From contig NC_043009.1 of NCBI RefSeq assembly GCF_006345805.1, positions 24,366,001 through 24,430,000 of the forward strand: a stretch of DNA of 64,000 nucleotides. Reading direction: 5' to 3'. The position numbers were made by a program, and so were the translations under genes. Within the stretch, counting starts at the first letter, position 1. Each line of letters opens with the position of its first letter. This DNA is from Octopus sinensis (Eukaryota). The notes under the pieces are model-generated. The model had not been told where the DNA came from. It searched no databases and saw only the letters and a program-made list of their open reading frames with translations. Of this stretch, positions 4,886-58,755 are shown in pieces.

Positions 4886-5183
4886 GAGTATATATAATAT
4901 ATATATATATATATATTATATTATATATATATATATAATACATTTCTATATACATATATATATATGCATATATATATACATATATATATATAAGTGTGTA
5001 TATATATTATATATATATATATATATATAATATATAATATATTGTGTGTATATATATATATTTATATGATTATATATATATATATATATACAATTAAGGG
5101 CTCCTAAATAAAGATGCCGAGTGCTGGGACACAAAAAGGGGATGAATTTATCGAGAGTGAAAATCAAAAACGTTACCGATAAC

Positions 5184-5272
5184 TTTAACAACTCGTACCG
5201 CGGTTTCTGCTTCTTTCTAGCAAAACACAGAATATGTTTGCTAAGGCCAGCTTCATCAGCGAGTCGCCTAAA
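5184..5272 (-). ncRNA. Type I hammerhead ribozyme, copy 1
   Basis: Minus strand reads gcgactcg CTGATGA [45-nt stem II containing the tagcaaaca/tgttttgcta hairpin] GAAA ccgcgg TA cgagttgt. Stem I is 8 bp with G-U pairs and stem III is the palindrome ACCGCGGT. Predicted GUA cleavage at 5196/5195. Confidence 0.8.
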
Positions 5273-5623
5273 TTTAATCGGGTCTGCAGCGATGTGGGAC
5301 TATGTGTGAACCCGACTACTAGCAGATCTTAACTTTTCAAATCTCTGCGCAGACGCAAAATTTACACGGCATGCCGGGAAGAATTTTACGAATAATCCAT
5401 CATGTAGTATGCGAATATAAACAAGAAGGGTAGTAATATTATTTACTACCAGGTGCCCAGCACAAAAGACGAATTAGTCATAAGACAAAAATATTATTCA
5501 TATAGAAAAATATTATTCATGTAGTTATACAATTAAGGGCTCCTAAATAAAGATGCCGAGTGCTGGGAACACAAAAAGGGGATGAATTTATCGAGAGTGA
5601 AAATCAAAAACGTTACCGATAAC

Positions 5624-5711
5624 TTTAACAACTCGTACCGCGGTTTCTGCTTCTTTCTAGCAAAACACAGAATATGTTGCTAAGGCCAGCTTCATCAGCG
5701 AGTCGCCTAAA
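5624..5711 (-). ncRNA. Type I hammerhead ribozyme, copy 2
   Basis: Same motif 440 nt away, with a 1-nt deletion in the stem II hairpin. Predicted cleavage at 5636/5635. Confidence 0.8.
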
Positions 5712-5726
5712 TTTAATCGAGGTCTG

Positions 5727-5798
5727 CTGATGAAGCTGGCCTTAGCAAACATATTCTGTGTTTTGCTAGAAAGAAGCAGAAACCGCGGTACGAGTTGT
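5727..5798 (+). ncRNA. Hammerhead core in the inverted copy (5' strand of stem I lost)
   Basis: CTGATGA at 5727-5733, GAAA at 5779-5782, then CCGCGG TA cgagttgt. The inversion junction removes most of the 5' strand of stem I. Confidence 0.55.
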
Positions 5799-5994
5799 TA
5801 AAGTTATCGGTAACGTTTTTGATTTCACCTCGATTTATCCCCTTTTTGTGTTCCCAGCACTCGGCATCTTTTTAGGAGCCCTTAATTGTATAACTACATG
5901 AATAATATTTTTCTATATGAATAATATTTTTGTCTTATGACTAATTCGTCTTTTGTGCTGGGCACCTGGTAGTAAATAATATACTACCCTTCTT

Positions 5995-6053
<59 letters not shown>

Positions 6054-14699: not shown

Positions 14700-14965
14700 A
14701 TAAGACAGTAAGGTGTGATTTGAGGGAGATTTGGCTGCTATTTCTAGCATGTCTAGCTGCCATGTAGGGGTCTCCCTCATAGGCTCATACATACATATAT
14801 ACATAGATAAGACAGTAAGGTGTGATTTAGGGGAAATTTGGCTGCTATTTCTACCAGGTCTAGCTACCATGTAGAGGTCCCCCTCATTGGCTCATATATA
14901 TATACATACATAAGACAGTAAGGTGTGATTTGAGGGAGATTTGGCTGCTGTTTCTACCAGGTCTG
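14700..14965 (+). repeat. Tandem minisatellite, about 105-bp unit x2.5
   Basis: taagacagtaaggtgtgattt(g/a)...tttggctgct starts at 14701, 14808 and 14911. Confidence 0.92.
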
Positions 14966-27785: not shown

Positions 27786-27833
<48 letters not shown>

Positions 27834-28143
27834 GGAGGCGCAATGGCCTAGTGGTTAAGGAAGCGGACTCGCGGTCGGAGGTTCGCGGTTTCGATTCCCA
27901 GACCGGCCGCTGTGTGTGTTTATTGAGCGAAAAAACCTAAACCTCCACGAGGCTCCGGGCAACCCCTGTTGTACTCTTTCGCCCCAACTTTCACTCACTC
28001 TCTCTTCCTGTAACTTGAGTAACGCTGCGATGGACTGGCGTCCCATCCTGCTGGGGGAAAAACATACGCCACAGACACTGGGGCTAAAAAATTATATTAT
28101 TATTAATATTATTATTATTATTATATTATTATTATTATTATTA

Positions 28144-28179
<36 letters not shown>

Positions 28180-28453
28180 GGAGGCGCAATGGCCTAGTGG
28201 TTAAGGAAGCGGACTCGCGGTCGGAGGTTCGCGGTTTCGATTCCCAGACCGGCCGCTGTGTGTGTTTATTGAGCGAAAAAACCTAAACCTCCACGAGGCT
28301 CCGGGCAACCCCTGTTGTACTCTTTCGCCCCAACTTTCACTCACTCTCTCTTCCTGTAACTTGAGTAACGCTGCGATGGACTGGCGTCCCATCCTGCTGG
28401 GGGAAAAACATACGCCACAGACACTGGGGCTAAAAAATTATTATTATTATTAA

Positions 28454-28500
<47 letters not shown>
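27834..28500 (+). repeat. Tandem 346-bp duplication of a family B-head SINE with V-domain-like tail, separated by (TTA)n
   Basis: Apparently identical SINE bodies start at 27834 and 28180. The tail contains ctgcgatggactggcgtcccatcc. Confidence 0.92.
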
Positions 28501-28504
<4 letters not shown>

Positions 28505-28507
<3 letters not shown>

Positions 28508-46699: not shown

Positions 46700-47560
46700 T
46701 TATGAAGTGTAAAAGTAATGTCAATCTCTTTTTGGTCAGAATCTTATTCTAATAACAACAATAGCTACAACATTCTTTAATATTTTCAAAGTCCCTTAAT
46801 GTAAAACTTTCTTTCAAATCAATCAGTTCATATATTTCCATTGAGGAATGGGTAAACCTTTAATATAGAAGAGGGCTTTCTTCTAGGCGTTCCTTCAATG
46901 TAACCCTCCGGAAATCCTTTTGTATAATTCGTTGTTTATGTATTCTTACTCGTTCGAAAAAGAAGTTTCCAGTCTGTCCGATGTAAATTTCGTTGCAGGT
47001 AAGGCAAGTCAAGAAATAAAGCAGATTTTTGGTATCTGTTTGCAAATAATATTAGCTTTTAAATTTTATATTGGATCCATATTCCACTGAATCGACACCG
47101 TTACTACATATTCTAAAACAGTTGCCTCCATAAGCTTTGTGGACTATTGAGTTATTATCTGACGTGAATTATGTTCTTGTGGCGTTCTTTTGTCGTAATG
47201 GGGGTTCTTTTTTTGCTGTCATTTGCAGTTCATTCTACAATATTTCTCGATTAAATCTTTTGGGAGCTTCGCAGCCAGGATTGGTAAAATTGCTGTTACA
47301 CTGACGAATATAATTGTCGTCATTAGAACATGTGTTTTAAGAAGCGGAATAATATTCTCCTCAAATGTTCTTCTAAGCCTCAGTTTTGGCATTTCAACAA
47401 CTATTTTTACTTTTAATTTCAAGGGATAATTTTGAAGCTCCAGAAAGAATTTAAGTTTATCAATATCAATTTGTCTAAATGTAAAGTCAACGGCTTTTGG
47501 GCAATTGAATCTTGGCATATTCGACAGTCAGTTCCTTTTGATACGTGAATCGCAAAGAGA
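46700..47560 (-). mobile_element. Decayed Penelope-like element (RT C-terminus plus GIY-YIG)
   Basis: ORF 46860-47045 gives KNLLYFLTCLTCNEIYIGQTGNFFFERVRIHKQRI (CxxC, YIGQT, R-H). The upstream ORF has KLKFFLELQNYP. Confidence 0.85.
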
Positions 47561-48974: not shown

Positions 48975-49009
48975 TACATATATATATATATATATATTAT
49001 ATTATATAT

Positions 49010-49740
49010 ATACACGTATGTATATTCACAAAAGCAATCAAATCTAATGTGAATAAATGATAGTGATTTAAACTGTAACACATAAGGGCCGAATATCACT
49101 CTGATCTCATCCTTGATATCAATAAAAACAGGAGCTAAGTAGTTGTAATGGAGAAGATATGATGGAAAGTGGTAGAGATTAACACATACAACAAAACAAA
49201 AGTAAACAGACTCATAAAGTCATGGATGGTAACGTGCGCAATTGTGTCTCTACCAAGGGAAAATCCGGAACCACCACATGCCAAAAACCCTATGCCGTCT
49301 CCCAAGCGGCAACAGAAGAAATACCAACAATGAAGCAAACAAACTGCACATATATATATATATTATATTTATATATATACACGTATGTATATTCACAAAA
49401 GCAATCAAATCTAATGTGAATAAATGATAGTGATTTAAACTGTAACACATAAGGGCCGAATATCACTCTGATCTCATCCTGATATCAATAAAAACAGGAG
49501 CTAAGTAGTTGTAATGGAGAAGATATGATGGAAAGTGGTAGAGATTAACACATACAACAAAACAAAAGTAAACAGACTCATAAAGTCATGGATGGTAACG
49601 TGCGCAATTGTGTCTCTACCAAGGGAAAATCCGGAACCACCACATGCCAAAAACCCTATGCCGTCTCCCAAGCGGCAACAGAAGAAATACCAACAATGAA
49701 GCAAACAAACTGCACATATATATATATATATATATTATAC
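49010..49740. repeat. Near-perfect 366-bp tandem duplication bounded by TA tracts
   Basis: Identical ORFs at 49135 and 49501. The only difference seen outside the TA tract is a 1-nt indel (catcctt/catcct). Confidence 0.95.
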
Positions 49741-57570: not shown

Positions 57571-58019
57571 TGTATTTATATACGTATTTATATAAGTATA
57601 TATATATATATGTATGTATTTATATACGTATTTATATAAGTATATATGTATATATATATATATATGCATATATATGTGCATATATATATGTATGTATGTA
57701 TCTGTATGTACGTGCATTTACGAGATGCATGATGCATCAATACACAAATGATCAGTCTACACATATATGAACAATTTATGTGTGTGTGAGTCTGAATGGG
57801 CGTGTGTGTGTGTATACATATATATATATACTCATACACACACGAATATAAATATATATATATATAAATATATTTATATATAGAGGGCATTATACATACA
57901 TGCCAGATGGCATTATACATACATGCCACACGCTAAGAGGGACAATTAGTCATTTCTACCAAAAATATTACTAATCCCACCGAATGCAATTTTTCAAAGT
58001 AAGACATTTAAAAAATATA

Positions 58020-58065
58020 GACCTGTATCACCGTGATTTCATACTTACGTATTCATCAGCAGGCC
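58020..58065 (-). ncRNA. Canonical compact type I hammerhead ribozyme
   Basis: Reverse complement reads ggcctg CTGATGA atac-GTAA-gtat GAAA tcacggtga TA caggtc. 6-bp stem I, GNRA-capped stem II, near-palindromic stem III and AUA cleavage at 58026/58025. Confidence 0.88.
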
Positions 58066-58259
58066 TGGATGTATCATACATAAACGACCCTGCCTCGCTT
58101 AAGTCGATCAGCTAACTGATCAACATCAACGAAGCACATGGGTGAGTTTACATATATTACATCCTGTAGATGTCAGACTTTTACGAATTGCATTTCGGGA
58201 AAGGAAAAGTTTTTTCGGAATAAAAATTTAGCAATTAAGTAGTTGTCCTTAATTGCTAT

Positions 58260-58357
<98 letters not shown>

Positions 58358-58755
58358 TGCATACATATGTGTATATGTTTTTACATGATATATATATATA
58401 TATATGATTGTGACATTTTGTTATTTAGTATATGTCAGCATGTGTGTGTGGTTGCATGTGTTTGCTTGTGTGTGTATGTGCGTGCGTCCACGTGTGTGTA
58501 TACGTACTTCATCTGTGAACAAGAGAATCTTAATTCAATATAAATGTCTACAGAAAGAGAATTATGAGGCATTAAAATTAAGGTCTATAAGAAATTAGGG
58601 TGGAGCAGTAGAAAGAGAGGGAATGAGAATAAAAAGGAAAAATTATGTAGAGAAATAAAAAGTAGTGTCGTCCATGAATGTGTGTGAAAAATAACTGATG
58701 TGGGAATGGAACATGGCGGAGAAAGCCCGACTTTGGAAATGATCGAGAGATCGAT

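What the first reader, a model, noticed from the sequence alone, without database searches (positions are those of the whole stretch)
57930..58262. Textbook 46-nt hammerhead in an unrelated ~330-bp TA-embedded element
All core nucleotides are intact, with a 6-bp stem I and a GUAA tetraloop on stem II. Stem III (AUCACGGUGAU) is almost palindromic, so it may act as a dimer. The host segment has weak inverted ends (agggacaatta/tagttgtcctt and cgaatgcaatt/aattgcatttcg) and no visible similarity to the 5090 family, so it may be a second HHR family. This is the best candidate for an active ribozyme in the window.
Basis: partly seen in the sequence, partly recalled or inferred. Interest (0 to 1): 0.72.

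Follow-up and report, generated by a model that had tools for sequence, protein, structure and literature searches.

The report
Penelope-mobilised hammerhead retrozyme, two-armed copy
This is one of several hundred young copies of a small, protein-free jumping repeat carrying a hammerhead ribozyme motif that is predicted to cut only in pairs; the copies sit in TA repeats as two back-to-back arms ending at two fixed sites, which likely records how a borrowed Penelope retrotransposon enzyme pastes them in.

Summary
The type I hammerhead is real (58020-58065, minus strand; predicted cut 58026/58025). The element is 57872-58258, an incomplete copy of a 476-bp protein-free monomer with at least 527 intact-core copies in the genome. 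Its 'inverted ends' are not terminal repeats. It fits the metazoan non-LTR retrozymes. Folding favours a double hammerhead in tandem copies, while a lone copy takes the active fold about 0.4% of the time, so this one-ribozyme insert is not the window's best active candidate. Copies sit in (TA)n, mostly as two head-to-head arms: 29 of 29 inverted copies in an end-blind sample have one end at each of two fixed sites 119 nt apart, the Penelope 'tail' rule. One locus joins a retrozyme arm to a Penelope arm. No parent Penelope element was found. A LINE has landed at one base of the monomer in at least four subfamilies, 30 bp past a TATA box. Cleavage, transcription and circles are untested. The scan already reported this class, the two-site rule and LINE targeting on other DNA of this genome. 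New member of a known kind.

The parts
57872..58258 (.). Whole insertion: two head-to-head arms of a 476-bp monomer, between (TA)n tracts
57872..58239 (-). Long arm, 368 bp of the monomer (positions 414-476 and 1-305), 99.2% identical to the reference monomer; its outer end is fixed site A (...CCCTCTATATATAAAT on the ribozyme strand)
   Evidence: end class
58234..58258 (+). Short inverted arm, monomer positions 319-295; outer end is fixed site B (...CCTTAATTGCTA); joined to the long arm through 6 shared bases (58234-58239)
58020..58065 (-). Type I hammerhead motif: stem I 58065-58060 with 58025-58020, core CUGAUGA 58059-58053, stem II 58052-58041, GAAA 58040-58037, stem III 58037-58027, predicted cut between 58026 and 58025
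   Evidence: activity untested
57882..57928 (+). 23-bp direct repeat inside the monomer; carries subfamily markers
57875..57883 (+). TATA-like box TATATATAG, 30 bp upstream of the LINE landing site; promoter function inferred only
57905..57918 (+). Empty landing site of a two-ORF LINE; this 14-mer is duplicated where the LINE sits in sister copies
57981..58197 (-). Long-range stem (57981-57991 with 58186-58197) closing the folded domain that holds the ribozyme
58146..58159 (-). TATA-like motif about 80 nt upstream of the ribozyme; candidate promoter of the ribozyme strand, by position next to a block shared with family B, where the LINE lands 28 bp past a TATA box on that strand
   Evidence: inference
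57846..57871 (.). Left (TA)n target tract
58260..58405 (.). Right (TA)n target tract

Best explanation
This is an incomplete copy of a young, protein-free mobile repeat (476-bp monomer with a type I hammerhead motif; a non-LTR retrozyme) that is likely copied into (TA)n tracts by the reverse transcriptase and endonuclease of a Penelope-like element. Steps. (1) Tandem copies are transcribed on the ribozyme strand: inferred, with one weak RNA hint. (2) Neighbouring hammerheads pair through stem III and cut out monomers: predicted by folding, not assayed. (3) A Penelope enzyme nicks both strands of a TA tract and starts one cDNA on each, at two fixed internal RNA sites 153 and 272 nt downstream of the cut site: the two fixed ends and their one-of-each pairing are shown; the enzyme is inferred. 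(4) The two cDNAs run for variable lengths, often through several units, and are joined, often over a few shared bases, giving a head-to-head insert: structure shown, process inferred. The window copy is a short product (368 + 25 nt) with one ribozyme and would not be expected to cut itself efficiently alone.
For: Family: 48 matches at 94-100% from 40 scored of 1,591 candidates; 527 exact core copies, control 0; longest ATG frame 44 codons. Ribozyme structure: the homologous family B (E 9e-14) changes both sides of 5 of 6 stem I pairs and keeps all 6 paired. Dimer: two 56-mers co-fold into the double hammerhead at -34.5 kcal/mol against -13.0 each alone; in a natural 546-nt dimer the double hammerhead is the minimum-energy fold, constrained probability 0.26 against 7e-9 for two single folds. 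Monomer folds far better than shuffles, more so on the ribozyme strand (z -10.3 against -7.1, 25 shuffles). Ends: in 40 loci picked by core match only, 41 elements; 29 of 29 inverted ones have one A and one B end, 11 of 12 single-arm ones have A or B, 37 of 41 have TA on both sides. In 32 other loci, 34 elements, 24 of 25 inverted ones are A+B (one read by eye) and one is B+B. Same pattern in family B (11 of 16 inverted; 5 with the second end elsewhere; none with two alike) and the 5090 family (7 of 7 complete), and in a Penelope family of this genome (4 clear inverted copies among 30 loci, ends 30 nt apart). In vitro, a Penelope protein cuts and extends both strands at AT-rich DNA and starts at two internal RNA sites (PMC11167929). 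L109 joins three retrozyme units ending at site A to a Penelope arm, with matching ages (0.8% and 1.0% internal divergence). A young Penelope family with intact RT and GIY-YIG frames and (TA)n-flanked ends is present.
Against: No cleavage, transcript end or circle was observed; only contigs of runs guessed to be RNA were available. No Penelope pLTR homologous to the monomer was found in 50 GIY-YIG loci. The two sites are 119 nt apart, against 30-40 nt for known tails (PMC8557442). One B+B copy (L038) breaks the rule. Pair 10.1-11.1 is A-U. L109 is a single case and could be a later insertion with a target deletion of about 700 bp; 4 of 41 elements do have a non-TA side. In a published test 8 of 9 predicted Xenopus retrozyme dimers did not cleave (bioRxiv 10.64898/2026.07.22.740005). 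The low substitution rate in the core (0.8% against 1.5%) is biased by how loci were picked and is not counted as support.
Confidence: 0.8

Rival explanations
1. Same element and enzyme, but the template is a monomeric RNA circle that the reverse transcriptase laps several times (the published retrozyme model).
For: Units within an array are more alike (0.8-0.9%) than between arrays (2.1%); 14 private variants are shared by all units of an array; same-index units of opposite arms are no closer than different-index units (0.89% against 0.96%, p 0.52); the monomer is strongly self-paired; coral, mussel and axolotl retrozymes form circles (PMC7229834).
Against: In L082 both arms cross a LINE-free site and then meet the LINE in the next unit with a near-identical junction, which a monomer circle cannot give. 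20 split sites in 7 loci show unlike units in one array, for example blocks of two haplotypes in L085. In vitro the Penelope enzyme used uncut RNA as its main template (PMC11167929). Both templates may be in use; my data do not separate them for most copies.
Confidence: 0.35
2. The repeat is the detached pLTR of an autonomous Penelope element of the same sequence that is missing from the assembly or from my sample.
For: 24 of 57 Xenopus retrozyme families were homologous to known elements, nearly all Penelope-like (bioRxiv 10.64898/2026.07.22.740005); only 150 of 5,029 GIY-YIG candidates were scored and 50 loci fetched.
Against: In 80 family loci no Penelope frame continues from the repeat except the head-to-head chimera L109; the Penelope pLTRs seen are unrelated in sequence; stem II is 4 bp, not the 7-8 bp of pLTR minimal hammerheads (PMC4209133).
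Confidence: 0.15
3. The two-ORF LINE found inside some copies is the mobilising partner and the repeat is SINE-like.
For: The LINE sits at one base of the monomer in 8 of its 69 matched 3' ends and is of similar age.
Against: The LINE is antisense to the ribozyme, makes 13-17 bp duplications and does not prefer (TA)n; the repeat shares no 3' tail with it, has two fixed ends and inversions. The LINE sits in at least four host subfamilies, as a visitor would.
Confidence: 0.04
4. A DNA-level element (MITE or satellite) with terminal inverted repeats, the hammerhead being inert.
Against: The 'ends' are internal or come from the inverted arm; copies are truncated at variable inner points with fixed outer ends; stem I covaries between homologous families.
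Confidence: 0.03

Closest known systems
Metazoan non-LTR retrozymes (Cervera and De la Pena 2020, PMC7229834, parts 2-4 of 6 read; Li, Clavereau and Pollet, bioRxiv 10.64898/2026.07.22.740005, parts 1-3 of 5 read)
   Same: Protein-free tandem units of a few hundred bases, low GC, one type I hammerhead per unit, strongly self-paired monomer, dimer-favouring stem III, co-occurrence with Penelope-like elements.
   Different: Unit of 476 bp is above the 170-400 nt RNAs of the 2020 paper (inside the 51-972 bp range of the preprint). Copies are short, dispersed, mostly two-armed inserts in (TA)n with two fixed ends and no readable target duplication; the parts I read describe no such ends. Circles and cleavage are untested here.
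EN+ Penelope-like elements and their pLTR/tail structure (PMC11167929, parts 1-2 of 4; PMC8557442 and PMC3846280, passages; PMC4209133, parts 1-2 of 4)
   Same: Partial tandems, an inverted truncated copy head-to-head, a tail at one end only, microsatellite targets, hammerhead upstream of two internal start sites, carriage of foreign DNA.
   Different: No coding frame; 'tail' of 119 nt instead of 30-40; hammerhead closer to the canonical type (6-7 bp stem I, 4 bp stem II) than to pLTR minimal motifs; no sequence homology to the Penelope families fetched.
Target-preferring Tx1-clade LINEs (Tx1 in Tx1D, Tx1-Mar in Mariner-N4, Keno in U2; PMC4494074, passages)
   Same: For the visitor only: two-ORF LINE (CCHC knuckle; endonuclease, RT, zinc finger) landing repeatedly at one site of another mobile element.
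   Different: Its recurrent targets share no clear sequence but lie 28-33 bp past a TATA box. Clade membership was not tested by a tree; 'Tx1-like' rests on domain layout and recall.

Membership tests
Type I hammerhead ribozyme | Conserved core (CUGANGA, GAAA, UH) with three helices, open at helix I | tested here: met
   covariation of stem I with family B
Type I hammerhead ribozyme | G10.1-C11.1 pair at the base of helix II (highly conserved per PMC4209133) | tested here: not met
   A-U in all family copies; a U-U variant still cleaves weakly in axolotl (PMC7229834), so this lowers expected rate, not the fold
Type I hammerhead ribozyme | Match to a curated Rfam hammerhead model | tested here: not met
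   no hit at gathering score or E<=10
Type I hammerhead ribozyme | Self-cleavage at the predicted site | not testable with these tools
   needs an in vitro assay; contigs show no RNA ends
Metazoan non-LTR retrozyme | Tandem units of a few hundred bases, each with a type I hammerhead | tested here: met
   476-bp period, arrays of two to six or more units in the family; the window copy itself is less than one unit
Metazoan non-LTR retrozyme | No coding capacity, no LTR, low GC | tested here: met
   longest ATG frame 44 codons; ends are in (TA)n, no LTR pair; PBS and PPT were not searched for separately
Metazoan non-LTR retrozyme | Stable, highly self-paired monomer RNA | tested here: met
   circular fold -140 kcal/mol, z -10.3, 64% paired
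Metazoan non-LTR retrozyme | Expression as linear and circular monomer RNA | tested here: inconclusive
   contigs of runs only guessed to be RNA hold the sequence; they cannot show strand, ends or circles
Metazoan non-LTR retrozyme | Target-site duplications longer than 4 bp when present | tested here: inconclusive
   both flanks are (TA)n, so a duplication cannot be read
Penelope-like element (autonomous) | ORF with RT and GIY-YIG endonuclease | tested here: not met
   none in the element or continuing from it
Penelope-like element (insertion footprint) | Partial tandem, inverted 5'-truncated copy, tail at one end only | tested here: met
   29 of 29 and 24 of 25 inverted copies with one end at each fixed site; tail length 119 nt differs from 30-40
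Penelope-like element (pLTR derivative) | Sequence homology to the pLTR of an autonomous element | tested here: inconclusive
   none in 50 GIY-YIG loci, a small part of 5,029 candidates
MITE / TIR element | Terminal inverted repeats at both boundaries | tested here: not met

The most novel reading that the evidence does not exclude
These inserts are a genomic record of a dimeric Penelope reverse transcriptase that primes both target strands at once from two obligatory, non-equivalent RNA sites and can take its two arms from different RNAs (a Penelope transcript and a retrozyme transcript at L109), using uncut multimeric RNA able to carry a 5.3-kb passenger (L082). The same repeat is parasitised by a LINE that finds its sites by position, about 30 bp past a TATA box, which would mark two promoters in the monomer family, one on each strand.
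Probability: 0.35. Interest if true: 0.72.

Novelty: new member of a known kind. Interest (0 to 1): 0.48.

Why it matters
How animal retrozymes move has been argued from co-occurrence and pLTR similarity, and how Penelope elements make their inverted ends and tails is still open. This family is young (about 2% between arrays), has hundreds of copies and a strict one-of-each end rule, and young intact Penelope frames lie in the same genome. It gives a defined RNA, two defined start sites and candidate enzymes for the published in vitro Penelope assay. The class itself is known, and this scan has met it many times in this genome, so the value is as a test system rather than as a new kind of element.

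Tried and rejected
Rfam: no hammerhead model matched. RNA: no holder on record as RNA was listed; 7 runs of guessed RNA or unknown kind plus one large run were laid as contigs (8 of 24 listed runs) and cannot show ends, strand or circles; the 'goes back 471' joint is also what a genomic tandem gives. A four-sequence MAFFT alignment of the ribozymes held one wrongly chosen stretch and misaligned the cores; discarded, stems were read. First reading of the LINE as one insertion carried as cargo (note) was dropped after one search showed at least four host subfamilies; cargo remains only for L082. The test for circle against linear multimer by unit index was not decisive. No strand bias of editing type among rare genomic variants (A>G 1.34, T>C 1.03 per 1000). 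A shared CCTYAATTG end motif was sought in Penelope loci; hits were inside coding sequence, not at ends; a composite end pattern gave one hit and no partner. Sequence look-up in earlier findings returned nothing, nor did a word look-up for a partner. Literature searches for hammerhead + Penelope + octopus, cephalopod + ribozyme + retrotransposon, twin priming + Penelope and non-LTR retrotransposon + TATA box + insertion preference + transcription start listed no paper whose title or abstract start describes this family, the paired-end rule in retrozymes or TATA-guided LINE insertion; the library lacks most subscription papers and Repbase, and I read no supplements, where cephalopod entries could stand.

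Full report
Observation. It was the one hit of my first descriptor in the window. Rfam does not recognise it. Pair 10.1-11.1 is A-U, where G-C is usual (PMC4209133).

What the element is. A search of the genome (2.72 Gb; earlier scan notes call it an octopus, which I did not test) gave 48 matches at 94-100% from 40 scored of 1,591 candidates. Tandem copies define a 476-bp monomer with no ATG frame over 44 codons. The 35-nt core pattern, free at the centre of stem III, occurs 527 times, control 0; the window's variant with G at that centre has 26 exact 46-mers. Arrays differ by about 2.1% and units within an array by 0.8-0.9%. The window copy runs 57872-58258: a 368-bp arm and a 25-bp inverted arm that overlap by 6 bases.

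Is the ribozyme meaningful? A homologous 499-bp family (B; E 9e-14) has both sides of 5 of 6 stem I pairs changed and all 6 still paired. A single copy is predicted to misfold: probability of the active fold is 0.4% for the window variant and 1.1% for the majority variant. Two copies co-fold without constraint into the double hammerhead (-34.5 against 2 x -13.0 kcal/mol), and so does a natural 546-nt dimer (0.26 against 7e-9 for two single folds). This matches the dimer model for animal hammerheads (PMC4209133; PMC7229834). These are secondary-structure predictions without tertiary contacts. The window insert has one ribozyme; the 5090 array has two on one strand and is the better in-window candidate. 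Published caution: 8 of 9 predicted Xenopus dimers did not cleave.

How copies are laid down. I fetched 40 of the 48 new places among the first 100 listed, chosen by core match and blind to ends. They hold 41 elements: 29 inverted, all with one outer end at site A (monomer about 414) and one at site B (about 295); 12 single-armed (8 A, 3 B, 1 neither); 37 with TA on both sides. Independent 50:50 choice would give 29 of 29 with probability 2e-9. In 32 earlier loci (34 elements, picked by likeness to the window copy) 25 were inverted: 23 A+B by script, one A+B by eye (L027), one B+B (L038). On the ribozyme strand both sites are 3' ends, 153 and 272 nt past the cut. Family B (26 of 30 loci examined; 11 of 16 inverted with one of each, 5 with the second end elsewhere, none alike) and the 5090 family (21 of 30 examined; 7 of 7 complete inverted copies) behave the same way, though those queries began at one of the ends. 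This is the Penelope footprint: partial tandem, inverted truncated copy, tail at one end only (PMC8557442; PMC3846280). In vitro a Penelope protein cuts and extends both strands at AT-rich DNA, starts at two internal sites that bound the tail, and is predicted to be a dimer (PMC11167929). I infer one cDNA from each site, one per target strand. The 119-nt spacing is longer than known tails.

Which enzyme? The genome holds at least 147 GIY-YIG matches (150 of 5,029 candidates scored), among them a family with intact 781-residue RT plus GIY-YIG frames at 98-100% identity, (TA)n-flanked, with two 3' ends about 37 nt apart. No pLTR in the 50 loci resembles the monomer. One locus, L109, is a head-to-head chimera: a truncated Penelope arm ending at its tail-bearing site, and an arm of three retrozyme units ending at site A, linked through 132 bp of the Penelope 3' region (99.2% identical to the other arm's copy) and 3 shared bases. 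Retrozyme units there differ by 1.0%, so ages agree. That Penelope family shows the same one-of-each rule in 4 clear inverted copies among 30 loci. One event using two RNAs is the simpler reading; a later insertion with a deletion of about 700 bp is not excluded. The Penelope copy is broken and 4% from its nearest relatives, so it may itself have been a passenger.

Circle or linear template? Undecided for most copies. L082 argues for an uncut multimer: both arms cross an empty LINE site and meet the LINE in the next unit with near-identical junctions. 20 split sites in 7 loci also need unlike units in one template or later exchange. Shared private variants (14) fit a circle.

A visitor. A 5.3-kb two-ORF LINE sits at one base of the monomer, antisense to the ribozyme, in 8 of its 69 matched 3' ends. 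These 8 form one clade with two dispersed copies (support 94/94; 23 of 30 copies long enough for the tree) and lie in at least four host subfamilies, so insertion was repeated. It also sits in family B, on the ribozyme strand (4 loci). Of 36 rows with a readable upstream flank (3 duplicates and 3 stacked on another LINE dropped), grouped by eye into 16 distinct targets, 7 have TATAWA starting 28-33 bp upstream, against 8.8% background (P about 2e-4; motif, window and grouping were chosen after seeing the data). In this family the box is 57875-57883 and the empty site 57905. I looked for a promoter link after reading earlier notes on snRNA-type start sites.

RNA. Only contigs were available. 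One contig from another organism (X14, kind guessed) carries 9 T>C changes among 18 differences, 8 of them at positions that are at least 97% T in genomic copies; this would be A-to-I editing of the ribozyme strand, but it is one contig without matched DNA, and the four other guessed-RNA runs laid do not show the bias.

Verdict. A new member of the metazoan non-LTR retrozymes with a Penelope-type insertion footprint. The scan has reported this class, the two fixed ends and LINE targeting on other DNA of this genome; I had the end rule before that look-up. Supplements of the cited papers were not read and may hold cephalopod examples.

Noticed in passing
window 5090-5998: The 5090 family is a 445-bp retrozyme-type repeat with two same-strand hammerheads (5259, 5698), a perfectly palindromic stem III and the same two-fixed-end, inverted structure; it shares a short CCTTAATTG end motif with this family but no significant homology.
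   Followed up: partly
L038:3880-4650 (G000:C21): Family B, a 499-bp homologue with a longer stem II, 12-nt palindromic stem III and compensatory stem I; 1,315 candidates in the first look.
   Followed up: partly
L031:1561-6842 (G000:C5): Two-ORF LINE inside a retrozyme array; recurrent targets lie about 30 bp past a TATA box.
   Followed up: yes
G000:C28 4.37-5.50 Mb and C2 195.34-195.38 Mb (L099, L259-L262, L271-L288): About 26 of the 69 LINE 3' ends cluster in an unidentified multicopy family, most at a site beginning (T/C)GGAGTTAGTTCCC about 30 bp past TATAAAG; looks like a tandem gene family promoter.
   Followed up: partly
L087-L091: Five LINE copies sit at one site (CCTTATTATTGC) of another repeat, 30 bp past TATAAAA; one is stacked on an earlier LINE copy.
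   Followed up: partly
L170-L174 (e.g. G000:C1:207473200-207480800): Young Penelope-like family with an intact 781-residue RT plus GIY-YIG frame and an upstream 479-residue frame with no Pfam match; long 3' region with repeated TGACGTC motifs; no hammerhead found by my descriptor.
   Followed up: partly
L109:1240-1275, minus strand: The pLTR of the second Penelope family holds a hammerhead-like motif with an apparent U3-A8 core variant and palindromic ACCGGT; stem I was not convincing by eye.
   Followed up: no
flanks of many loci: Many unrelated hammerhead motifs with palindromic stem III occur by chance of sampling near other elements, pointing to numerous retrozyme families in this genome; the scan required near-palindromy, so that feature is partly built in.
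   Followed up: no
window 27786-28505, 48984-49736, 14700-14964: Other near-perfect tandem duplications (periods 346, 366, 107); the first has a SINE-like head. Not examined.
   Followed up: no
window 46881-47033, minus strand: Short remnant of a Penelope GIY-YIG domain (tblastn E 4e-9).
   Followed up: no
run X14, contig 13: Cluster of T>C changes over monomer 302-352, a possible sign of A-to-I editing on the ribozyme strand.
   Followed up: partly
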